This document shows, piece by piece, positions 1 through 9,900 of a stretch of DNA of 64,000 nucleotides. The stretch's first letter is position 1. Every line of letters begins with the position of its first letter. The DNA is taken from contig CAWJKZ010000017.1 of the NCBI GenBank assembly GCA_963843575.1, positions 1-64,000 on the forward strand. The letters run 5' to 3'. Under the pieces are notes generated by a model. The model was given only the letters and a program-made list of their open reading frames with translations. It did no database searches and was not told where the DNA came from. This DNA comes from an uncultured Acidobacteriota bacterium (lineage in GTDB: Bacteria > Acidobacteriota > UBA6911). The position numbers and the translations under genes are program-made.

Positions 1-362
1 TTAGGGATGGTGCGGGGGAGCTGATACGAGTCAGGGTGAAATACCGGGTCCACCACCGGCTCAAGCACCATCTTTGCGACCGTCTGCGCAACTCTGTCGG
101 CCACAGTGGGAATACCAAGTGGGCGGGTGCCGCCGCTTTCCTTCTCGATCTCAACAAGCCGCACGGGCGGCGGGAAATACGAACCCGACGACATCCGATT
201 CCAGATCTTGTACAGGTTGCCCTTCAGATCTTTCTCGAATGCCGCCAGCGACTCGCCATCCACGCCCGCTGCCCCGCGGTTCACCTTCACCCGCTGGTAC
301 GCTTCCCAGACGAGTTGCTTCGGAATGGTGTAAGGCTTTGCCTCGGCGCCGGCTCCTCCCAT
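1..362 (-). CDS. ltrA: Group II intron reverse transcriptase/maturase, N-terminal part (not in ORF track, no stop in window)
   Basis: Manual translation from ATG 362: MGGAGAEAKPYTIPKQLVWEAYQRVKVNRGAAGVDGESL...NLYKIWNRMSSGSYFPPPVRLVEIEK...RPLGIPTVADRVAQ...FHPDSY, typical of class D IEPs. Confidence 0.92.
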   Translation of the reverse strand, partial: MGGAGAEAKPYTIPKQLVWEAYQRVKVNRGAAGVDGESLAAFEKDLKGNLYKIWNRMSSGSYFPPPVRLVEIEKESGGTRPLGIPTVADRVAQTVAKMVLEPVVDPVFHPDSYQLPRTIP

Positions 363-894
363 CGCTGGTTGACTTATGCCCTCGGCCGATTCGTTGGGCT
401 ACCTCGCTCCACCCGCATTACCAGGCTTCATCGCTACGACGAGCCCATCCGCCCCTTCGCCTCGCATCGGTACTCGGCTCCTCATGGGTCCACCACTTGG
501 AGATCTTCCTTAACGTCGAGGCGATAGGTTCCCGCGTTCCGCACAGAGCCTGTGCTGGGCTCACGCCGCCTTTGTGCCGGTCACCACTCGGGCGGTCGGC
601 GGCTTCTCCCGAGCTTCGTCCCGAGCCAACAACCGGAGCCCGGTTTTGATGACGTCAATACGCTTTCGACACGTTATCAGCGGTTCACTCACGTTCGTCT
701 TCCCAGCCCTCACCTGACGGGTTTGTCCCGCCTTTTTCGAAACGCTCACCACCTCGGCCGTTCGACCAGAGCCACTTCCGGTGGTTTGGACCCTGGCCCT
801 GCAGCCCGAGTCCGAGGGGCCTCCCTCATCTCTTGTGCAGCATGGCTGCTTCAGGTGGCCATTACGGCCTCCTCTCCGCGCCTTCGCGGCGCAC
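1..894 (-). mobile_element. Inner group II intron (RmInt1-like, bacterial class D), 5' part; runs off window
   Basis: Minus strand begins GTGCGCCGCGAAGGCGCGG at 894 (GUGYG consensus); about 530 nt of ribozyme-like leader (GTGAACCGCTGATAACGTGTCGAAAG, GGAACGCGGGAACC, GTAGCGATGAAGCCTGGTAATGCGGGTGGAGCGAGG) precedes an RT ORF. Confidence 0.88.
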
Positions 895-1654
895 TATCAT
901 CTGCGAATCTGGCGTACTCGATCACCGCCCTTCCCGCCTGACGTGAGACCTCTTTCGCCCGCTCCAGCATCCTGTCCACTTCATTCAGGTACAAGTTACT
1001 GAGCAACGGCGATATCACCCCACCTTGCGGAACACCCTGCTTCCCCGACGCTTTCAGAATCAATCTGAGCAGCCACAGAACATCTTCATCGCTCACTCGA
1101 CGGGCCACCTTCTCCAGCACGATGTGATGCCGTACCGTGTCGAAGTAGCTCCGCAGATCAAGATCGATGACGTAGCTCTTGCCCTCAATGATCGCTTCCG
1201 CAACGCGCCGTAGCGCAGCGTGCGCTGTCTTCTTCGGCCGGTAGCCAAACGACCCCGGTTGGAAGTCTGCTTCGAAGATCGGTTCCAGGATGAGCTTCAG
1301 CGCCCCCTGGACCACACGGTCACGAATCGATGGAATCGAAAGCTGGCGAAACTTTCCGCCCTCCTTCGGTATCTCCACCTTCCGCGCCCGTTGGGGCCGG
1401 TAGCTCCGCTGCTCCAGCTCCTCTCGAAGCCGGTCGAGAAATCCCTCAGTCCCCTCAGCCTCAATCGCCTCGAATGTCACCCCGTCTATTCCTGGGGCTC
1501 CACCGTTGCTCTTCGCCAGCTGATAGGCTTCCCTGAGCGTCTCCCGCTTGCAGACGTGCACATACAAACCCCAAAACCGCCAACTCGGTTCAGCCTTCGC
1601 CTTGACGTATAGTCTTCGTCTCAGGTCCTGCAGACTCACGGGTGCCTTTGTCAT
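895..1654 (-). CDS. ltrA: Group II intron RT/maturase interrupted right after the FADD motif
   Basis: ORF 851..1654 has RT0-RT5 (GAPGIDG, IPSIRDRVVQ, GSFGYRP, GVPQGGVISPLL, YARFADD), then 14 out-of-family residues read from the inner intron. Confidence 0.93.
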
Positions 1655-2170
1655 CTCACCCCTGCCTCCCTTTCTGACTCAGACGCCATGTGCAGCAAGG
1701 CCCCTTCGCTCCACGGGTGTTACCCCGCTTCCCCGCTACTACGGACCTGGCCGCCACCGTCTCGCCTTCGGCCGCTTTCCCGGTTTGAGCCGGTTATACG
1801 GCCTACCTTGCTCCACCGATTTCTCGATGGGGAGAGGACGGTTTCTCCAGTTGCTCAGCGTGCCCTCGTCACCGTGCTGTCCCTACCACCCCGCCGGAGT
1901 GACCTGCCGCATCAGTCAGTTTGCGACATCCCATGCTGCCTTCGCCCTACCTTAGGGGGCTCGGCCTCCGGGGTATATTTTTTGTCGGGGCCACCTGTGG
2001 GTTCACTTTCGTTACGGCCCGGCAACTCGCTCACCATCCCAAGGACGGCTTTGTCAGTCGGCTTCATCAGCTTCGTTTCCTCCACTGATGCGACTCAAGC
2101 TACAAGACTCTGACTCTTATCTTGGTGGGTCTACCTCCCACTGGAACACGCCAGCCTTCGCTGGACACAC
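895..2170 (-). mobile_element. Outer group II intron, 5' part (class E/F-like, class not resolved), interrupted at 894/895
   Basis: Minus strand starts GTGTGTCCAGCGAAGGCTGGCG at 2170; domain I motifs GGAGGCCGAGCC...GGGCGAAGGC and GCAACTGGAGAAACC; RT starts at 1654. Confidence 0.85.
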
Positions 2171-2397
2171 TAGGGTGAAAAAACTCGGCCGGTCTGCAAG
2201 TGACTGAAGCGGCGGCTCTTGCCGAAGCCGCCGCGAGCCCTGTTTCGGACCGGTTGACAGGAACCCGCCGATCCCGGATGCTGCGTCTTTTCATGCCGCA
2301 TTCGGAGAGACATGAAGTTCGAAACGGCTATGGGCCATGTAAGGGAGAGAACCTGAGATGTTGTGGTATGTATCTGGATTAATGAGACTTACAGGCT

Positions 2398-2474
2398 TGG
2401 TAGCGACGGGTGGAATCGAACCACCGACCTTGGGGTTATGAATCCCACGCTCTAACCGACTGAGCTACGTCGCC
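2398..2474 (-). tRNA. tRNA-Met (CAT), probably elongator
   Basis: GGCGACGTAGCTCAGTCGGTTAGAGCGTGGGATTCATAACCCCAAGGTCGGTGGTTCGATTCCACCCGTCGCTACCA: cloverleaf, TTCGA T-loop, encoded CCA. Confidence 0.95.
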
Positions 2475-2680
2475 ACTCTGGACGCGAACAAGGCAGCGCA
2501 GCATTTTGCGGCCTCAAGCCCCCATTTTTCAAGGCCTAATTGAGTCGGCGCACCGAACCGTCCCCCGCGCGCCGCGCATTTTCATGCAACCGGCAGAGAC
2601 GTCCGGCGTCTAATAGGGAGCACCTCAAACGGCCGAGTCCCCATGTCCGACCGGCGTCCCCACTCGCGGGAGGACACACC

Positions 2681-4264
2681 ATGAAGATCCCCAAGCGCTT
2701 CCTGTGCCGCGCAGGCCTCCTTCTGTTCGTCTTTCCACTTCACGCCCAGGACGGCAAGCTCGAGATCGTGAACCCCGGGTCCAGGGAGCTCAAGAGAAGC
2801 GCCTTCCGACTGCGCATGCCTGCCGAGCGGCTGAAAAACGCGCGCGCGGCGCTGCAGGAGGCGACCGACATCGCCAGGCTCGCCCGCCCCATCCCCGTGC
2901 GGCACTTCTTTCAGCTCGGCGACTTCTGGGTCCAGCTCAACCGCGCCAAGGCCGAGGAAGCCATCAATGGCATGCTTGCGACCCTGCGCACGGCGGCACA
3001 GGGGGCCACGGCATCCAGCCAGTACCGCGACGCCACAACCGCCGCCCAGATGCTCATCGGCTCTCTCTCCCAGGTCGACCCCGACCAGTCCATTCAATGG
3101 GCACGGGAGTGGCCCAAGCCCTCCCCGTCGCTCGGGCCGGAGTCACTGGCCGGCGACGACGGACTCGAACGGCAACTCCGCCGATCGGCCCTGCAGCGCC
3201 TGGCTTACACCGACCCCGAGGCTGCGCTCAGGATATGGTCGGCCGGACCCGATCGCGCCACCGACGACTACGATGTGCGCGGGCCGCTCGCCGCTCAACT
3301 GGCGCAGACCGGACGCACCGAAGAGGCCGACAAGATCATCGATCGCACGCTTGCGGAATTCGCCGCCGCCAAGCCCGATCCCTCGGTCTGGAACAGCTAT
3401 GGCAACTTCCTTTCCTCCCTGTCCCAGGCAGCGCCCGACCGCTTCCTGGAAGCCTTCCGCCTCTGGGCCCGGAACCCGCCTCCCCCAACCCCGGGAACAA
3501 GCAGCACCATGCTCCCCGCGGGCGACCAGGCCATACCCCTGGACTCGAGCGAGGCGGCAGCGCTCAACATCCTGAGGAGTATCGGCTCCCGACCCGAGCT
3601 GATGATGAAGGCACTCGACAGCGTGCCGACCCTCAAAGCCAAAATCGACCAGGCGGGAGGGATCGATCGGGCACTCAACGGCCAGGGGTTCATGCGGGAC
3701 CGCATTCTCGTGCAAAATCCCGATGGTTCCCTCCGGACCGCGGCTGCGGATCCCGACAAACCTTCCGCCCCCACACTTTTCAGCGAGCTGCGCGGCAAGT
3801 CGGCAAAAAATCCCCAGCTCGTGCGCAACAGACTCGCCTCCGTCGCTAACCCGGAGGCTGTGGGCCAGTTGCTGCAGATCGCCATGATGAGCGTCGGGCA
3901 GGATCCGGACCTGACCTGCCTCGCGGTCGAGATGGCGCGCCCCATCGTGCTTCGCATCGACCCACCCGCCCGCCGCCTGTCCTACTTCCAGCAGTTAGTC
4001 ATGACCACCAGGCAATGCGAGGGCGAGGTCGATTCCAGTCTGATCAAAGAAGGATTTATCCTGGCCGACGAGCTGCGGGAGAGGGACGGATTTCCCCCGG
4101 CAAAGCCGGGGTATTCGGCGGCGGACCAGCTCGAAGCGAACCTCCTGTCCGAGCTGGCGCGCGACAACTTCGGCGCCGCGATCCGCTACGTGCGCAGCAT
4201 GTCCGAAGACCAGCAGAAACTGGGTGCGCTCATGCGCATCCTCCAGGCCTGCAGGCAGTATTAA
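2681..4264 (+). CDS. Secreted alpha-helical hypothetical protein
   Basis: GGAGG RBS before ATG 2681; signal peptide MKIPKRFLCRAGLLLFVFPLHA. Confidence 0.75.
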   Translation: MKIPKRFLCRAGLLLFVFPLHAQDGKLEIVNPGSRELKRSAFRLRMPAERLKNARAALQEATDIARLARPIPVRHFFQLGDFWVQLNRAKAEEAINGMLATLRTAAQGATASSQYRDATTAAQMLIGSLSQVDPDQSIQWAREWPKPSPSLGPESLAGDDGLERQLRRSALQRLAYTDPEAALRIWSAGPDRATDDYDVRGPLAAQLAQTGRTEEADKIIDRTLAEFAAAKPDPSVWNSYGNFLSSLSQAAPDRFLEAFRLWARNPPPPTPGTSSTMLPAGDQAIPLDSSEAAALNILRSIGSRPELMMKALDSVPTLKAKIDQAGGIDRALNGQGFMRDRILVQNPDGSLRTAAADPDKPSAPTLFSELRGKSAKNPQLVRNRLASVANPEAVGQLLQIAMMSVGQDPDLTCLAVEMARPIVLRIDPPARRLSYFQQLVMTTRQCEGEVDSSLIKEGFILADELRERDGFPPAKPGYSAADQLEANLLSELARDNFGAAIRYVRSMSEDQQKLGALMRILQACRQY

Positions 4265-4290
4265 TAACTCCGCCTGACATCAACCGAGTC

Positions 4291-4851
4291 TTATGGCGAG
4301 GGCTTCGAGATCGGCGACGAAAAGCCGTTTCTCGCGCCGCCGCGTTTCGCGTCAGGAGCACGCAAAATCGAAGAAGGGTGGACTGTTGCCACAACCACCG
4401 GTGCAACCGGCGACTCCACGAATTCGCCGCGAATGAGCGAGAACCGGGAAGGGGCATGATCCGGACTTCCAAGACTACAGAAGGGCCGCGCCGAGCCGTC
4501 GCGCCCAGGCAGACGGCGTGCGGCTTGACCACGGTAAGCTCCGCCTCCAGCCACGGACGGTAGGCCCTGATTTCGGCCCCGTTCGGTTTCGCGTGGATGC
4601 GGCTGCCGCGCGATCCCGGCAGCTATCGCCTCGTCCAGGAGGCCAGCCCGCAGGGCTCACGGACGGCTTGCCCGCCAAATCCTCCTCATTCCCCGGCCGC
4701 TCGCCGACAAACATGATCGTGGAACTTCGGCGTCCTTCCCCGAATACCGTCTGGGTGCCGCGCTTCCACAACGGGCAGGCACGGCAGACCGCAGCCGCCT
4801 TCCTCAGGGCTGGAAGCGTCGGCCGCGCCCTGATCAGTTTCCCACCCGCAT
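4291..4851 (-). pseudogene. udgX: UdgX-type (family 4) uracil-DNA glycosylase pseudogene
   Basis: Fragments in different frames: CRACPLWKRGTQTVFGEG...FVGERPGNEEDLAGKP; RIHAKP...PWLEAEL..VKP..VCLGATA; VVATVHPSSILRAPD. Frameshifts plus an internal deletion. Confidence 0.8.
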
Positions 4852-4900
4852 CCTTCCCCGAATCACGCCTTGACTAACGAACGGCCGGCAATGCAGAATT

Positions 4901-4920
4901 AGGTGAATAAAAGGTGAATA
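4901..4920. promoter_or_regulatory. Candidate LexA (SOS) box, GAAT-N7-GAAT direct repeat
   Basis: AGGTGAATA at 4901 and 4912 (11-bp period) overlapping the imuA start; resembles the GTTC-N7-GTTC type of box. Confidence 0.6.
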
Positions 4921-5636
4921 TGCAATCCGTCTTGCCTGTGAAAATCCAGCCGAACGATCCTCGGGGCGAACCCAAAGGGGCACGCAGTGCCGGGGCAATA
5001 CAATGTGTGCCGACCGGGATCGAGGCCATCGACCGCATTTGTGCCGGGCTGCGCGGGGGCGCGATGGCCGAGCTCTACGGGCCGCCATCGAGTGGCAAGA
5101 CGACCGTGCTGCACTCCGCCCTGGCACAGATCACGGCCCGGGGAGAGGTCTGCGCGGTGGTCGATGTCGGGGATGCCCTTGACCCGGATTCCGCTCAATG
5201 CTCCGGTGTCGACCTGAACCGACTGCTTTGGGTGCGATGCGGCGGCCAGCTGGATAAAGCATTGAAAATAGCGGATATGCTGCTGCATGGCGGCGGTTTC
5301 GGATTGATATCCCTGGATTTGGGTGACCTGGCGGCGACGGCAATCCGCAGGATCCAGATGATGTACTGGTTCCGTTTCCGGCGCGCCGCGGAAGATTCCG
5401 GCAGCATTTTTCTCCTCATCTCCCCGCTCCACATAACCGGCTCCTGCGCCGCCCTGACATTGCAGGCGAAAACCGGTACCCCGCGCTGGCGCGGTTCACG
5501 GCAGTTTCCATTTCTGGACTCGCTCGAATACCGCATGAGCTTCGGCCGGCTACGGGCCGGCCAGGTGCCATCGAATACAACGGGCGAAATATGTATGCGT
5601 GCATTTATGGACCCGCGCTCACGGAAGGTCAGCTAG
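4914..5636 (+). CDS. imuA: ImuA, RecA-like translesion accessory protein
   Basis: Walker A GPPSSGKT, GVDLNRLLWVR, GGGFGLISLDL; first gene of imuB-dnaE2 operon. Confidence 0.88.
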   Translation: MNMQSVLPVKIQPNDPRGEPKGARSAGAIQCVPTGIEAIDRICAGLRGGAMAELYGPPSSGKTTVLHSALAQITARGEVCAVVDVGDALDPDSAQCSGVDLNRLLWVRCGGQLDKALKIADMLLHGGGFGLISLDLGDLAATAIRRIQMMYWFRFRRAAEDSGSIFLLISPLHITGSCAALTLQAKTGTPRWRGSRQFPFLDSLEYRMSFGRLRAGQVPSNTTGEICMRAFMDPRSRKVS

Positions 5637-6922
5637 CGCTTCTGATCCGGTGCGGATATGGTTTCTCCCCGCACGTGGAGAGGACGGGGCCCAACATGGT
5701 CGTCCTGGACGCCCGGGGGAGCGGGCAGCTGTTTGGGTCGCCAGAAGCGCTTTGCGCCCGGATAGGCACCGAAGCGCGCCGCGCCGGAATGAAGGTGCGG
5801 GTGGCCATCGCCGGGGATCCGGATACGGCGGTGCTGGCCGCGCACGGGTTCGAGACCGACATCGTCGTCCCGCCCGGCCGGGAAGGCGATTCCCTCGCCT
5901 CCCTGCCCATTCAGGCCTTGGCGGCGTTTCCGCTCAGCCAACAACCGGGACGTGGAGTGTCCGGCAAAGCGGCCGAGAATCCTTGCGCCGCCCTCGAGCT
6001 GTGGGGGGTGAGGACACTCGGGCAGTTGGCGTCGCTGCCGGAGTCGGGCGTCTTCGAGCGGCTCGGGGCCGAGGGTGTGGCGCTGCAACAACTCGCCCGG
6101 GGGGTGCGGCGGCGGCCCCTGCTGCCGATCCGGCCCGCCCCCGGACTCTCCCAATCGATCGAACTGGAGCACCCGATCCCCGAGCGGGAGGCGCTCCTTT
6201 TCGTGCTCGGCAGCCTGATCAACCAGCTCTGCGCGAAACTCGAGGCGCACGCGTTCGCGGCGCGCGAGCTGCATCTTGGGCTGGTCCTGGAAAAGGGCGT
6301 CGACAGGGAGCGTTCCATCCGGCTCGCCTCCGCCACCCGCGACCACCGGCTGCTTCTAAAGCTCGCTGACGTCGAACTCGAGACGCACCCCCCCGAATCG
6401 GCGGTCACGGTGGTGACCGTATCCGCCGACCCGGCCAAACCGCGCACGACACAAAAAGGGCTGTTCTCACCCGCGTCCCCTGAGCCGGAAAAACTCGAGC
6501 TGCACATGGCCAGGATTGCCAAACTGGTCGGCAGGGAGAATGTCGGATCGCCCGAGTTGCTCGACAGCCATCGGCCGCAGGCATTCCGGATAAAGCACTT
6601 CCAACCTTCGAGCACAGGCACGGTGAGGGAGAAGGGAGAAAGGGCCCCGGCGCTCAGGGTCTTCCGTCCTCCTCTGAAGGCTTCCGTCAGCCTGGAGAGC
6701 AACCTGCCGGCCCGGTTGACGGCAGCGGGCGGCAAGGCACAGGCGGGTCTGCGCGGGAGGGTGATCCGGGCCGCGGGTCCCTGGCGCACTTCCGGCGACT
6801 GGTGGGGTGAAACTCGCTGGGCACGCGACGAGTGGGACGTCCAGCTCGACGGCGGTTCGGTCTGCCGCATTTACCGTGACGCCATCGCCGGAGCCTGGTT
6901 TGTGGAAGGGGTATACGACTGA
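5591..6922 (+). CDS. imuB: ImuB, inactive Y-family polymerase
   Basis: FSPHVE, GVRTLGQLA, QKGLF clamp-binding motif, C-terminal AGPWRTSGDWW...EGVYD. Confidence 0.9.
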   Translation: MYACIYGPALTEGQLALLIRCGYGFSPHVERTGPNMVVLDARGSGQLFGSPEALCARIGTEARRAGMKVRVAIAGDPDTAVLAAHGFETDIVVPPGREGDSLASLPIQALAAFPLSQQPGRGVSGKAAENPCAALELWGVRTLGQLASLPESGVFERLGAEGVALQQLARGVRRRPLLPIRPAPGLSQSIELEHPIPEREALLFVLGSLINQLCAKLEAHAFAARELHLGLVLEKGVDRERSIRLASATRDHRLLLKLADVELETHPPESAVTVVTVSADPAKPRTTQKGLFSPASPEPEKLELHMARIAKLVGRENVGSPELLDSHRPQAFRIKHFQPSSTGTVREKGERAPALRVFRPPLKASVSLESNLPARLTAAGGKAQAGLRGRVIRAAGPWRTSGDWWGETRWARDEWDVQLDGGSVCRIYRDAIAGAWFVEGVYD

Positions 6923-9900
6923 TGTACGTCGAGCTGCACGCGCGCTCGGCCTTCAGCTTCCTGGAAGGCGCGTCGCTGCCCGAAGAGCTGGCTGGACGGG
7001 CCGCCGCTCTCGACATGCCCGCGCTTGCCCTGCTGGACCGCGACGGCGTGTTCGGTGCGCCGCGCTTCCACCTCGCCGCCAGGAAGGCGGGGGTGCGTGC
7101 GCACATAGGATCGGAGATCACGCTCGCCGACGGTTCCAGGCTGCCGCTTCTTGCCCGCAACCGCACCGGGTATCAAAACCTCTGCAGGCTGGTCACACGC
7201 ATGAAGCTGCGAGCCGCCAAGGGGAACGCCTCCGCCACCCGCGAAGACCTCGCCACGTTCTCCGACGGTTTGATCTGCCTCACCGGGGGCTCCGACGGGC
7301 CTCTGGCGCGGTCCTTGGATGAGGGTCCCGAGGCCGCCGCCCGCGAGGCGGAAGATTTGTCGCGCATCTTTGGGCCGGAAAACGTCTACCTGGAAATCCA
7401 GCGCCATTTCAGCCGCGAGGAGGAGGCCCGCACCCAGGCCCTCGCCGCAATCTCGGGGAAGACGGGGCTCCCGCTGCTGGCCACAAATGGAGTCAGGCAC
7501 TGCAGGCCCGAGCAGCGCCGCATACTGGACGTGCTCGCCTGCGTGCGGCACAAAAAGACTCTCGAGACCGCGGGAAGGCTGCTTGCCCAGAACTCGGAAC
7601 GTCACCTCAAGGATCCACGGGAAATGGCCCGTTTGTTTCCCGACTTCCCGGAAGCCGTGGCCCGCACGGCCGAGGTGTCTGCCAGGCTCGAGTTTACCCT
7701 GGCCGACCTTGGGTACGAGTTCCCGCGCTATCCCGTCCCCCCGGGGGAGAGCATGATGTCGTTTCTCCGCAAACGGACGGATGAGGGGGCGCGAAACCGC
7801 TACCGTCCGTACCACGCGCGCGCGCGCCGCCAGATCGCGCGTGAACTCGAGCTCATCGAGAAACTCCGGCTCGCGGGATATTTCCTGATCGTCTGGGACA
7901 TCGTGAACTTCTGCCGCGACCACGGCATTCTCGTCCAGGGCCGGGGATCGGCGGCCAACAGTGCCGTGTGTTATTCGCTCGGGATAACGGCCGTGGATCC
8001 GGTGGGGATGGACCTGCTCTTCGAGAGGTTTCTGTCCGAGGAACGCGGCGAGTGGCCGGACATCGACCTCGATCTCCCGAGTGGGGACCAGAGGGAACGG
8101 GCCATCCAATACGTCTATCAGCGCTATGGCAAGCTGGGGGCAGCGATGACGGCCAACGTCATCACCTACCGCGGACGTTCCGCGGCGCGGGAGGTCGGCA
8201 AAGCCCTCGGATTTGACGGGTCCACGCTGAACAGGCTGTGCAGCCTGGTACGCGCCTGGGAATGGCACGACCCAAAGGATACGGCCGAGCGCCAGTTCCG
8301 GGATACCGGGCTGGACCTGCAGGACACCCGCATCCGGACCTTTCTTCGGTTGTACCAATCCGTCATGGAACTGCCGCGGCACCTGGGCCAGCATTCGGGG
8401 GGGATGGTCATCTGCCAGGGTCAACTCGACTCGATTGTCCCCGTCGAGCCCGCAACGATGCCGGGGAGGGCCGTGGTTCAGTGGGACAAGGACGACTGCG
8501 CCGCCATGGGGATCCTGAAGGTCGACCTGCTGGGATTGGGTATGATGGCGGTCCTCGAAGATACAATCACCCTTATCCGGAATGCCTACGGCGAGGAGGT
8601 TGATCTCGCCCACCTTCCGCCGGACGACCCGGATGTTTACGCGAGCCTCCGGGATGCCGACACCATCGGCATGTTCCAGGTCGAGAGTCGCGCGCAGATG
8701 GCCTGCCTCCCGCGCCTGCAGCCGCGTGTCTTTTACGACATCGTGGTCCAGGTGGCCATCATCCGGCCGGGCCCGATCGTCGGCAAAATGGTGAACCCTT
8801 ATCTCCAGCGCCGGCAGGGGCGCGAACCGCCGGATTGCCTGCACCCTTCGCTGGAACCGGTCCTGAGACGCACCCTCGGGGTGCCGCTCTTCCAGGAGCA
8901 GCTTCTGAAGATGGCGATGATCTGTGCCGGCTTTACGGGCGGCGAGGCGGAGGAACTGCGCCGCGCATTCGGGTTCAAGCGCCCCGAAGCCCGGATGCAG
9001 GACGTCGAGGTCAAGCTGCGCAGCGGTATGCAGAAAAACGGGATCACGGGGGCGCAGCAGGACGCGATCGTCCAATCGATCACCTCCTTCGCCCTCTATG
9101 GTTTTCCGGAATCCCACGCGGCGAGCTTCGCGCTCCTGGCTTATGCGAGCGCCTACCTCAAATGTCATTACCCGGCGGCCTTCACCGCCGCGCTTCTGAA
9201 TAACCAGCCCATGGGGTTCTACCACCCGGCCACCATCGTAAAGGACGCGCAACGCCATGGCCTAAGGGTGAAACCGATCGACATCACCCGTTCGGACTGG
9301 GGCTGCACGGTTGAATCGGAGCAGGCTGGGAAAACGCTCAGGCTCGGACTTAAATACGTAAAGGGGCTGCGCGAGTCTGCGGGCAAGGCCATTGCCGCTG
9401 AGAGGTGCCGGCTGCGTTTCGCGGGCATCGACGACCTGTGGCGGCGAGTTCCCGGGCTGCAGAAGGGCGAGGTGCGTGCGCTCGCGGCCTCCGGAGCTCT
9501 CAACTTCATCCAGGCCGGCCCGGCGACGCCCCACCGCCGGGATGCTCTGTGGCAGGCCGAACGTCTCGGCCGCTCCAAAGGAGCGCTATACGAGCGCCTG
9601 GTCGAGTCGGACGCCGGGTCGCCGCTGCAAATCATGACCGAGGAGGAACGGATCTCGGCCGATTTTCGTGTCACAGGTCTGACCACGGGACGCCATCCGA
9701 TGGCGCTGCGCCGGGCAGAAGTGAGGCGTCTCGGGGCCGTGCGCGCCGCGGACCTGAAGCGGCTGCCCAACGGCGTCCCGGTGCGCGTCGCCGGCTGCGT
9801 CATCGTGAGGCAGCGCCCGGGGACTGCCAAGGGATTCGTTTTCCTCAGCATGGAGGACGAAACCGGGATCGCCAATATCATCATCGAGCCGGAGCTTTTC

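What the first reader, a model, noticed from the sequence alone, without database searches (positions are those of the whole stretch)
1..2170. Group II twintron: a class D intron inserted at the catalytic FADD codons of another intron's RT
Seen: the outer RT reads TTC GCA GAT GAT A| and is followed at once by GTGCG (894), a ribozyme-like leader and a second RT of a different lineage (362 to 1) in the same orientation. Known: twintrons homing into RT ORFs are described (e.g. Methanosarcina). Inference: the inner intron targets the most conserved motif of RTs, so it could parasitise RT-bearing elements generally, and the outer maturase is made only after the inner intron splices. A candidate EBS1, GUCAUC (+ strand 648-653), is complementary to exon GATGAT.
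Basis: partly seen in the sequence, partly recalled or inferred. Interest (0 to 1): 0.8.

Follow-up and report, generated by a model that had tools for sequence, protein, structure and literature searches.

The report
Intron nested inside another intron's gene
One self-splicing mobile intron has inserted exactly at the catalytic-site codons of another mobile intron's reverse transcriptase gene; this is real, but it belongs to an intron lineage already described as doing precisely that.

Summary
On the minus strand an outer group II intron starts at 2170. Its RT frame reads ...RFADD and is cut after base 895 by GTGCG (894), a second ribozyme domain I (Rfam RF01999, E 3e-19) and a second RT (362-24).

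The window is the start of a contig. The inner intron's 3' part, the rest of the outer RT and the outer DV/DVI are not in this assembly.

Three proxies support a true insertion:
- A contig of a public run carries the same outer RT (9 differences in 531 bases) without the insert. It departs from the window exactly at 895 and reads on in frame.
- A same-class genome (G353) holds a complete homologous twintron. Removing its inner intron gives a 436-codon open RT frame.
- 43 of 58 5' junctions of metagenomic relatives follow [YF]ADD codons plus one base.

EBS2 is GCGUA (663-659) and EBS1 is the loop GGUUGUU (634-628). Both covary with the exon across relatives; GUCAUC does not.

Introns that home into RYADD codons and make twintrons (M.a.I5, UA.I3, P.l.I2, B.th.I3) have been in print since 2003/2008. 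This is a new member of a known kind.

The parts
2398..2474 (-). tRNA-Met gene, 228 bases upstream of the outer intron; flank only, not part of the element
   Evidence: ARAGORN; Rfam tRNA, 70 bits
895..2170 (-). 5' part of the outer group II intron: GTGTG start at 2170, domain I, and the RT frame up to the FADD codons plus one base
   Evidence: Sequence. RF02003 at 2143-2007, E 2.2e-27. A homologous complete outer intron exists in G353.
896..1654 (-). N-terminal 253 codons of the outer intron's RT/maturase, ending ...EYARFADD
   Evidence: ORF list; TIGR04416 at 3.4e-75 and PF00078 at 9e-26
903..907 (-). IBS2 of the inner intron's target (TTCGC, exon positions -13 to -9; the Phe and Ala codons)
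   Evidence: 4 of 5 positions pair with EBS2; lineage-wide covariation (helix 1)
895..901 (-). IBS1 of the inner intron's target (GATGATA, exon positions -7 to -1; the two Asp codons plus one base)
   Evidence: 6 of 7 positions pair with EBS1, four of them G-U; lineage-wide covariation (helix 2)
1..894 (-). 5' part of the inner group II intron (class D-like, RYADD-homing lineage), cut off by the contig start
   Evidence: GTGCG at 894. RF01999 at 827-712, E 3.1e-19. Alignments to G353 copies begin at this very base. Contigs of runs X2 and X3 stop matching the window exactly at 895.
659..663 (-). EBS2 of the inner intron, 5'-GCGUA
   Evidence: The column covaries with exon positions -9 to -13 in 61 relatives
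628..634 (-). EBS1 of the inner intron, 5'-GGUUGUU, in the loop of a hairpin whose stem covaries
   Evidence: helix 2: 89.9% of cells paired; helix 3, the stem: 95.9%, all 6 pairs changed on both sides
648..653 (-).
   Evidence: It stays CAUC or CGUC in relatives that sit at CCAUCU, GCCAAA, CUGCAA and other sites
24..362 (-). First 113 codons of the inner intron's RT (RT motifs 0 to 2)
   Evidence: TIGR04416 at 1e-37. 67-90% identical to 80 metagenome loci. 65% identical to a 419-aa S. meliloti IEP beside IS66 genes.
1..23 (-). 23 bases at the contig start that do not continue the RT; unexplained
   Evidence: tblastn similarity ends at base 24. No 14-mer or longer of it occurs in any fetched locus, and relatives read GYRPG[KR]SA there. 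No public contig covers 1-87.

Best explanation
Window 2170-1 (minus strand) is the 5' two thirds of a group II twintron. The host is an endonuclease-less group II intron that sits downstream of a tRNA-Met gene.

A second mobile intron of the RYADD-homing, class D-like lineage reverse-spliced into the host's RT gene, between the base after the FADD codons (895) and the next base.

Recognition is by RNA-DNA pairing:
- EBS2 (5'-GCGUA, 663-659) pairs with the Tyr/Phe-Ala codons.
- EBS1 (loop 5'-GGUUGUU, 634-628; lineage consensus AGUCGUU) pairs with the two Asp codons.

In the lineage consensus, a G of the intron lies opposite each C/U third codon position (-2, -5, -11). The four-fold degenerate third base of the Ala codon (-8) lies unpaired between the two sites. 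One ribozyme can therefore find the motif in RT genes only 31-57% identical in protein.

What is shown and what is inferred:
- Shown: the junction, the two ribozyme/RT pairs, the pairing and its covariation, and restoration of the frame in relatives and in an insert-free copy.
- Inferred: the outer RT/maturase can be made only after the inner intron splices from the outer intron's transcript, so the inner element is a parasite of the outer one.
- Inferred: insertion occurs by reverse splicing at replication forks. Full-length relatives' IEPs have about 415-420 aa and no endonuclease domain.
- Not shown: that this particular copy is complete or active.
For: - Junction and both elements.
- Exact 5' boundary: three G353 copies align from the homologous first base while the preceding base varies (A, G, T).
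- Insert-free copy: X2 contig record 9 (4803 nt) matches 895-1425 with 9 differences. It then leaves the window at 895 and reads on as D-D-M-V-V-L-V in the RT frame. X3 record 17 also stops at 895.
- Complete homologous twintron, G353 locus L040: outer D1 3493-3632, inner intron 4746-6620, inner DV 6546-6620, outer DV 7220-7315. Removing the inner intron gives 436 codons with no internal stop; left in, the frame stops after 267 codons.
- Independent invasion of a different host RT in G353 (L042).
- Lineage-wide target: 43 of 58 5' junctions, found in 55 of 80 metagenome loci, follow [YF]ADD plus one base.
- Frame restoration: of 34 such loci with both junctions, the restored frame is open for at least 100 codons in 19, open to the contig end in 10, and stopped earlier in 5.
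- Hosts: 28 of 28 match TIGR04416 and are 31-57% identical to the window's outer RT.
- Pairing in the window: EBS1 6 of 7, EBS2 4 of 5.
- Covariation by script: among 20 distinct non-YADD targets, 185 of 240 cells pair. Shuffles give a mean of 111 and a maximum of 145; 0 of 10000 reach 185.
- Covariation by the count of structure pairs: 90.9% of cells paired against 78.0% in shuffles (0 of 500) and 22-44% when slid. 16 of 18 pairs change on both sides.
- Wobble layout: -2 is C in 27 and T in 18 junctions, -5 is 21 and 24, -11 is 26 and 19, and all four bases occur at -8.
- Print: PMC2504315 section 13 describes the same target and pairing region for B.th.I3, M.a.I5, UA.I3 and P.l.I2.
Against: - The 3' half of the inner intron, the outer RT's C-terminal part and the outer DV/DVI are absent from this 88%-complete, 27-contig assembly. 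blastn finds no other copy. tblastn with the G353 outer C-terminal part and the inner IEP finds only other introns on C9 and C24.
- No contig of the four public runs laid crosses 894/895 in the window's form, so the join has no read-level support independent of the assembly.
- Bases 23-1 do not continue the RT. The copy may be broken, or the contig end may be faulty.
- Pairing with the present host is weak. The -1 base is mismatched, four of six EBS1 pairs are G-U, and there is a U-U mismatch in EBS2 because the host has Phe, not Tyr.
- 15 of 58 junctions of relatives lie elsewhere.
- No RNA data bear on splicing.
Confidence: 0.85

Rival explanations
1. The join at 895/894 is an assembly chimera. 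The assembler walked from this genome's uninterrupted outer intron into a twintron of a closely related outer intron from another population in the same sample. A twintron would still exist, but not next to this tRNA-Met gene.
For: - The element sits at a contig start, and the last 23 bases fit nothing.
- An insert-free copy of the same outer RT, about 98% identical, exists in nature.
- Introns of this lineage are common in such samples: 581 confirmed stretches in the metagenome scan.
- No laid contig bridges the junction.
Against: - A graph join needs a shared word that spans host-specific sequence. The other genome's host RT would therefore have to be nearly identical up to the FADD codons, and the structure itself would still be real.
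- The junction has the exact form seen in 43 independent loci.
- The window's EBS sites pair with this host.
Confidence: 0.1
2. It is a dead remnant. The inner intron copy is truncated or interrupted at base 23/24 by a deletion or a further insertion, so the outer RT can never be restored and both elements are decaying.
For: - The RT frame departs from all relatives after ...PDSY.
- The 3' half is nowhere in the assembly.
- Truncated and nested copies occur among relatives: L063, L100, and L039 with a transposase gene inserted in the host RT.
Against: - Up to base 24 both frames are open and both ribozyme parts give full-length Rfam matches.
- Odd bases at contig ends are a common assembly artefact.
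- Repeated elements usually break contigs without being broken themselves.
Confidence: 0.2
3. The twintron was not made here. It moves or is inherited as one composite unit, and the inner intron did not invade this copy of the outer intron independently.
For: - G353 holds two copies of the whole composite with identical Rfam scores (L039, L040).
- Outer and inner parts are each 68-72% identical in DNA between the window and G353, as co-descent would give.
- Mohr et al. 2010 discuss retromobility of a composite intron as one route (PMC2882425, passage read).
Against: - An insert-free outer copy about 98% identical to the window's exists. That is far closer than the G353 composite, so the insert is younger than the split from G353.
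- Within G353 the same inner intron also sits in a different host RT and at two non-RT sites.
Confidence: 0.15

Closest known systems
[quoted passage not shown]
   Same: As described in PMC2504315 section 13:
- The target is the RT active-site codons, and IBS1 plus IBS2 lie in them.
- The IEP has no endonuclease domain.
- The RNA is B-like and about 1.8 kb long.
- The result is a twintron.

The window's lineage shows the same target consensus (CGN TAY GCN GAY GAY N) and lengths of 1832-1937 nt.
   Different: - No sequence of the named introns was at hand, so homology to them was not measured.
- The primary paper (Dai & Zimmerly 2003) is not held.
- The window's host RT has FADD, not YADD, and sits in a different phylum's genome.
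B.th.I3 of Bacillus thuringiensis israelensis (Tourasse & Kolsto 2008)
   Same: It has the same printed 5' target, AGGTATGCTGATGACT (RYADD), which fits the consensus found here. The authors place it in the same lineage.
   Different: Its host is a retron-like RT, not a group II intron. In my samples hosts were group II RTs: 28 of 28 and 74 of 76 by profile score. No retron-type host was found.
RmInt1, RmInt2 and Sr.md.I1 of Sinorhizobium (bacterial class D, IIB3)
   Same: - Endonuclease-less IEP of about 419 aa.
- The class D C-terminal motif (PMC4615759 section 6) is present exactly in the G353 relative.
- 55% identity over 407 aa between the G353 inner IEP and a 419-aa S. meliloti IEP beside IS66 genes, and 65% over 105 aa for the window's piece.
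   Different: - Their printed targets are insertion sequences (ISRm2011-2, ISRm17, IS66), not RT genes.
- I did not verify that the S. meliloti protein used is one of the named introns.
- Only 5 of 62 metagenomic relatives keep the strict motif; many read ...LF[VA]LW.
Thermosynechococcus elongatus twintrons (TeI3 inside TeI4; Mohr et al. 2010)
   Same: An intron that has evolved to insert at a conserved site of another mobile intron. Identical inner copies sit in diverged outer introns (PMC2882425, passages read).
   Different: There the site lies between the first two ATGs of the ORF and the inner intron has no ORF. Here the site is the catalytic motif and the inner intron carries its own RT.

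Membership tests
Group II intron (inner element) | 5' end GUGYG followed by a domain I-IV ribozyme fold | tested here: met
   GTGCG at 894; RF01999 full-length match at 827-712, 94 bits against a gathering score of 36
Group II intron (inner element) | Catalytic domain V and domain VI with a bulged A, then the 3' splice site | not testable with these tools
   It lies beyond the contig start and is absent from the assembly. It is present in relatives: RF00029 matches in L039-L046 and nhmmer 3' ends in metagenome loci.
Group II intron (inner element) | Intron-encoded RT/maturase in domain IV | tested here: inconclusive
   Only the first 113 codons are held. They match TIGR04416 at 1e-37, below the curated cut-off because the piece is partial.
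Twintron | The inner intron lies wholly inside an outer intron that has both of its own ends | tested here: inconclusive
   The outer 5' end and domain I are present. The outer 3' part is not in the assembly. The complete arrangement is seen in the homologue L040 of G353.
Twintron | Removing the inner intron restores the outer element's sequence or frame | tested here: met
   - By proxy for this copy: an insert-free contig of the same outer RT continues in frame from base 895.
- Directly in L040: 436 codons with no stop.
- In metagenome loci: 29 of 34 restored frames are open for at least 100 codons or to the contig end.
RYADD-homing lineage (M.a.I5, UA.I3, P.l.I2, B.th.I3) | The 5' exon at the insertion site is the RT active-site codons | tested here: met
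   Window: TTC GCA GAT GAT A | GTGCG. Relatives: 43 of 58 junctions.
RYADD-homing lineage (M.a.I5, UA.I3, P.l.I2, B.th.I3) | IBS1 and IBS2 lie within that motif and pair with the intron's EBS1 and EBS2 | tested here: met
RYADD-homing lineage (M.a.I5, UA.I3, P.l.I2, B.th.I3) | Sequence homology over the whole length to the named members (58-67% among them, as printed) | not tested
   No sequence of the named introns was fetched. Membership is inferred from shared target, size and IEP type.
Bacterial class D (IIB3) | The IEP lacks the D/En domains and has a C-terminal tail with LX3AX3PXLF[V/A]HW | tested here: inconclusive
   - The window's C-terminus is off the contig.
- The G353 relative (71% identical in the N-terminal part) has the motif exactly.
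- Among 62 metagenomic IEPs read to their stop, 5 keep the strict motif, and many more a one-residue variant.
- Lengths from the match start are mostly 409-429 aa.
Bacterial class D (IIB3) | The IEP clusters with class D references in a phylogeny | not tested
   No reference set was at hand. Only pairwise figures exist: 65% and 55% to a 419-aa S. meliloti IEP beside IS66 genes, against 32% for the outer RT.

The most novel reading that the evidence does not exclude
The RYADD-homing introns are a very widespread hyperparasite of retroelements, and their exon-binding sites are laid out to read a protein motif rather than a gene.

- A G of the intron lies opposite every C/U synonymous position (-2, -5, -11).
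- The four-fold degenerate Ala third base (-8) is left unpaired between EBS2 and EBS1.
- One ribozyme can therefore enter RT genes that share only about a third of their residues. These include its own family, and even the 5' junction of a resident copy, which would give head-to-tail arrays.

Because the host RT/maturase is split at its active site until the inner intron splices, the lineage would act as a natural brake on group II intron load. I found no statement of this wobble layout in the passages I read. The primary 2003 paper was not available.
Probability: 0.4. Interest if true: 0.5.

Novelty: new member of a known kind. Interest (0 to 1): 0.32.

Why it matters
For this window it settles an annotation. 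The split 'RT' frames at 1654-851 and 362-1 are not two genes. They are one host gene interrupted by a mobile intron.

The same arrangement is annotated piecemeal in named genomes, as 'reverse transcriptase domain-containing protein' + ltrA + 'maturase-specific domain-containing protein'. Examples are the C. pasteurianum BC1 plasmid, the Sulfobacillus acidophilus plasmid and S. meliloti ml59.

More widely, the census shows that a lineage known from four introns is common in soil, wetland and sediment metagenomes and occurs in many bacterial and some archaeal phyla. The pairing map explains how it finds a protein motif across diverged genes. That map could be useful for retargeting work and for counting active group II introns correctly.

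Tried and rejected
- Other copies in the genome. I looked for another copy of either intron, or the missing 3' half, in the window's own genome. blastn of 1-2400 hit only itself. RF00029 and PF00078 searches found other introns on C9, C10 and C24, none at a contig end. tblastn with the G353 outer C-terminal part and inner IEP found nothing that fits (the first try used a wrong frame for the outer part and was repeated).
- First 60 bases. I searched the genome for them; there was no match of 20 bases or more.
- Regular expression for the inner 5' end. It missed the homologues, so BLAST anchors and then nhmmer profiles replaced it. The first anchoring misplaced L067, L119 and L063; the profile search corrected the first two.
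It was rejected because the stretch does not change with the target.
- Public runs. No run holds more than 0.31 of the sampled words. None of the four runs laid covers 1-87 or bridges 894/895 in the window's form. This is no evidence against the join.
- Non-intron hosts. Of 76 genome-collection hosts with at least 150 codons, the lowest scorers were rescanned. L136 matches no family. L237 is an IS3 transposase frame. L164 is a nifH-like frame running into a truncated RT. L166, L152, L149 and L144 are group II-type. No retron- or DGR-type host was seen.
- Alignment A2. It misplaces the exons of six rows (L092, L095, L125, L098, L044/L045, L122:185), so understates the pairing. One search takes exon positions by coordinate. 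I left L088 (gap in the alignment), L100 (5' exon rearranged), L066:7307 (second tandem copy) and one exact duplicate out of A2.
- Not attempted: EBS3/IBS3, the class of the outer intron, and an IEP tree against reference classes.
- Papers. Dai & Zimmerly 2003 (PMC1370365) is not held. Supplements were not opened; Figure S1 and the tables of the Toro and Mohr papers might list RT-gene targets that I did not see.
- Searches for prior description.
- Unpublished genomes. Locus L021 of G152 was fetched automatically and not used.
It was sent again with that field added and nothing else changed.
Full report
**What is in the window.** The window is the first 64 kb of contig C17 of a 27-contig assembly that is 88% complete. 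All features of the finding lie on the minus strand.

- A tRNA-Met gene lies at 2474-2398.
- A group II intron begins with GTGTG at 2170, 228 bases downstream of it.
- Rfam gives a full-length match to RF02003 at 2143-2007 (119 bits, E 2.2e-27).
- The outer RT frame starts at 1654 and matches TIGR04416 at 2.1e-75.
- That frame reads ...EYARFADD (TTC GCA GAT GAT at 907-896), then one more base (A895), then GTGCG from 894.
- Left as it is, the frame stops 14 codons later.
- From 894 downward there is a second ribozyme, RF01999 at 827-712 (94 bits, E 3.1e-19), and a second RT frame from ATG 362 (TIGR04416, 1e-37 for 120 aa).
- The two RTs are about 40% identical.

**What is missing.** The contig starts inside the inner RT. 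No other copy of either element is in the assembly. The three other DV matches (C9, C10, C24) belong to other introns and lie far from contig ends. tblastn with the C-terminal part of a homologous outer RT and with a full inner IEP finds nothing suitable.

It cannot be run on this genome.

The last 23 bases (23-1) do not continue the RT. Relatives read GYRPG[KR]SA after ...PDSY, while the window reads QLPRTIP, and these bases match nothing fetched. I cannot tell a faulty contig end from a real break.

**Proxy 1: an insert-free copy.** Contigs of four public runs were laid on 1-2600. In run X2, a 4803-nt contig matches 895-1425 with 9 differences in 531 bases. It then leaves the window exactly at 895. 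Read on the minus strand, its next letters continue the RT frame as D-D-M-V-V-L-V-N-S. A 153-nt contig of run X3 also stops matching at 895.

So the same outer intron exists without the insert, and the insertion point is between 895 and 894. No contig of these runs crosses the junction in the window's form. That neither supports nor refutes the join.

**Proxy 2: a complete homologous twintron.** A search of 401 genomes of the phylum with the 120-aa inner piece found close relatives (68-75% identity) in five genomes. In G353, a genome of the same class, locus L040 aligns with the window without a break from the outer RT across the junction into the inner intron, at 68% DNA identity.

L040 holds all four landmarks in order:

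| Landmark | Position in L040 |
|---|---|
| Outer domain I | 3493-3632 |
| Junction GATGATA then GTGCGCC | 4745/4746 |
| Inner DV | 6546-6620 |
| Outer DV | 7220-7315 |

Removing 4746-6620 gives a 436-codon frame with no internal stop that reads RFADD, then IVITVSGHH... Left in, the frame stops after 267 codons.

G353 also holds:
- a second copy of the whole composite (L039), with a transposase gene inserted in the host RT;
- the same inner intron in a different host RT at a contig end (L042);
- two copies outside RT genes at look-alike sites...RYAGD in a frame with the H-L-H-V-H motif I recall from HIT-family proteins, and ...SYDDD (L041, L043).

The base before GTGCG differs among these copies (A, G, T), which fixes the 5' boundary. 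Restoring the frame in two unrelated genes, and in an IS3 transposase in G377, fixes the 3' boundary after ...CUCACC.

**Proxy 3: the lineage as a whole.** A metagenome scan with the window's 120-aa piece returned 581 confirmed stretches. The best 80 were kept, at 67-90% identity.

- An nhmmer profile of the intron's first 110 bases placed 58 5' junctions in 55 of the 80 loci. The other 25 lack the upstream sequence or gave only partial matches.
- 43 of the 58 follow [YF]ADD codons plus one base. The consensus is CGN TAY GCN GAY GAY N, then GTGCGCC.
- Of the 15 others, some are look-alikes: IYEAD inside RT motif 2a (L065), IYAMD (L074), and RHEGD inside another copy of the intron (L114).
- Three share CTGCAA or CTCCAA, one lies in a tRNA-like stretch, and one is the second unit of a head-to-tail pair (L066).
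- Of 34 YADD loci with both junctions, the restored frame is open for at least 100 codons in 19, open to the contig end in 10, and stopped earlier in 5 (L053, L066, L087, L113, L117).
- All 28 host fragments of at least 150 codons, including the window's and G353's, match TIGR04416. They are 31-57% identical to the window's outer RT.
- Two hosts (L102, L122) are of the inner intron's own family.

They come from Acidobacteriota, Actinomycetota, Bacillota, Chloroflexota, Planctomycetota, Pseudomonadota, Myxococcota and several archaea. Of 76 hosts there with at least 150 codons, 74 score as group II RTs, and none is retron-like.

**Named plasmids show the same arrangement.** It is annotated in pieces:
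- Clostridium pasteurianum BC1 pCLOPA01: ...TRYADD+A, then GTGCGCC.
- The Sulfobacillus acidophilus DSM 10332 plasmid.
- Sinorhizobium meliloti ml59, where two copies stand head to tail inside one host RT.

**How the target is read.** Aligning domain I of 65 copies against their own 5' exons shows two stretches that change with the target. One is 5'-GCGUA in an internal loop (window 663-659). The other is 5'-AGUCGUU in a hairpin loop (window 634-628, here GGUUGUU).

- Copies at other targets carry matching changes. Examples are CAACGUU with ...ACGUUG, AGUCCAU with ...AUGGACU, UUGCAG with ...CUGCAA, UGAUGU with ...ACAUCA, and GUGCUC with GAGCAC.
- For 45 YADD junctions, the mean is 6.58 of 7 EBS1 pairs and 4.78 of 5 EBS2 pairs.
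- For 20 distinct non-YADD targets, 185 of 240 cells pair. Shuffling exons among them gives a mean of 111 and a maximum of 145, and 0 of 10000 shuffles reach 185.
- The count of structure pairs on a MAFFT alignment of 61 rows gives 90.9% of cells paired against 78.0% in shuffles (0 of 500) and 22-44% when the partner is slid. 16 of 18 pairs change on both sides, including all six pairs of the hairpin stem that presents EBS1. That alignment misplaces six exons, so it understates the pairing.

In the window, EBS1 pairs with 6 of 7 positions (four are G-U, and -1 is mismatched). EBS2 pairs with 4 of 5, with a U-U mismatch because the host has Phe.

**A layout that tolerates synonymous codons.** Among the 45 YADD junctions the third codon positions vary freely:

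| Exon position | Bases seen |
|---|---|
| -2 | C 27, T 18 |
| -5 | C 21, T 24 |
| -11 | C 26, T 19 |
| -8 | all four bases |

In the consensus EBS a G faces each of -2, -5 and -11, and so pairs with C or U. Position -8 falls in the unpaired gap between IBS2 and IBS1. This would let one intron enter very different RT genes. It is an inference from the alignment, not an experiment.

**Class.**
- RmInt1 is IIB3/class D (PMC5894124, passage read).
- The class D tail motif is LX3AX3PXLF[V/A]HW (PMC4615759, section 6 read).
- The G353 inner IEP (416 aa, no endonuclease domain) ends ...LGGLARREPRLFAHW..., an exact fit.
- Of 62 metagenomic IEPs read to their stop, only 5 fit strictly; many read ...LF[VA]LW.
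- A 419-aa S. meliloti IEP beside IS66 genes is 55% identical to the G353 IEP over 407 aa and 65% identical to the window's piece over 105 aa. Its identity to the window's outer RT is 32%.
- I did not verify that this protein is one of the named class D introns, and I ran no reference phylogeny.

'Class D-like' is as far as the evidence goes.

**What is already known.** Tourasse & Kolsto 2008 (PMC2504315, section 13 read in full) report the following:
- B.th.I3 is inserted at the RT active site (RYADD).
- Its IBS1 and IBS2 lie in that motif.
- These introns are 58-67% identical over 1.8 kb, B-like, and without an endonuclease domain.
- B.th.I3 sits in a retron-like RT.

They cite Dai & Zimmerly 2003, which is not held. 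Zimmerly & Semper 2015 and Mohr et al. 2010 discuss such twintrons as perpetual homing sites and as a route of proliferation (passages read).

My searches found no paper on the scale of the lineage or on the wobble layout. Supplements and the 2003 paper were not seen.

**Verdict.** This is a real twintron fragment, most likely a fairly recent invasion of an otherwise intact outer intron, and a new member of a known kind. What goes beyond print is modest: the correct EBS1 and EBS2, formal covariation, the breadth of the lineage, self-invasion, and head-to-tail pairs. The copy itself is incomplete in the assembly, and its activity is unknown.

Noticed in passing
window 1-23: The contig's first 23 bases do not continue the inner RT frame and match nothing fetched. 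This is either a contig-end artefact or a real break or insertion.
   Followed up: partly
L066 5441-9204; L127 (S. meliloti ml59 pMl3) 1963-5683: Two copies of the RYADD-homing intron stand head to tail inside one host RT: the last base of the first copy is followed at once by GTG[CT]GCC of the second. A second intron could have entered at the intact 5' exon / intron junction of a resident copy.
   Followed up: partly
L114 4812-7337, with 5135-5793 inside: A three-level nest. The host RT (RYADD) holds an intron, and a short relative of about 660 nt, apparently without an ORF, sits in that intron's domain I at a GGCGACG look-alike site. Its EBS1 and EBS2 differ accordingly.
   Followed up: no
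L102 1301, L122 1432: The host RT is of the inner intron's own family (...PFERYADD, then [VG]IAHC...). The lineage also invades itself.
   Followed up: partly
L039 and L040 (G353): In G353 the outer intron sits in transposase genes, right after codons reading ...RWQI. In L039 the host RT is also interrupted by a 607-codon transposase-like gene on the other strand (6910-8733).
   Followed up: partly
L044, L045 (G311); L046 (G377): Close relatives of the inner intron use other targets: a palindromic repeat (...CCATCT/C) in G311 and the T-D-I-T-Y codons of an IS3 transposase in G377. Their EBS1 and EBS2 are changed to match.
   Followed up: yes
L129 (C. pasteurianum BC1 pCLOPA01), L130 (Sulfobacillus acidophilus DSM 10332 plasmid), L127 and L251 (S. 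meliloti ml59): Public annotation splits the host gene of such twintrons into 'reverse transcriptase domain-containing protein' and 'group II intron maturase-specific domain-containing protein' on either side of ltrA.
   Followed up: partly
3' ends of the lineage (L040 6620, L046 3238, L127 3822): Part of the lineage ends ...CUCACC rather than with the A-pyrimidine end that I recall as usual for group II introns. Others end ...CUCGAC. The boundary is fixed by frame restoration in three unrelated host genes.
   Followed up: partly
G000 C9:75514-78612, C24:about 402000-403400, C10:569166-569246: The same genome holds one more apparently complete group II intron (C9), a degraded one with stops in its RT (C24), and a lone domain V match with no RT nearby (C10).
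   Followed up: no
window 2171-2186: A contig of run X1 carrying a relative of the outer intron stays similar to the window up to 2186, 16 bases beyond the intron's 5' end, and then differs. This is as expected if the outer intron's homing site (IBS1 and IBS2) is shared between different insertion places.
   Followed up: no
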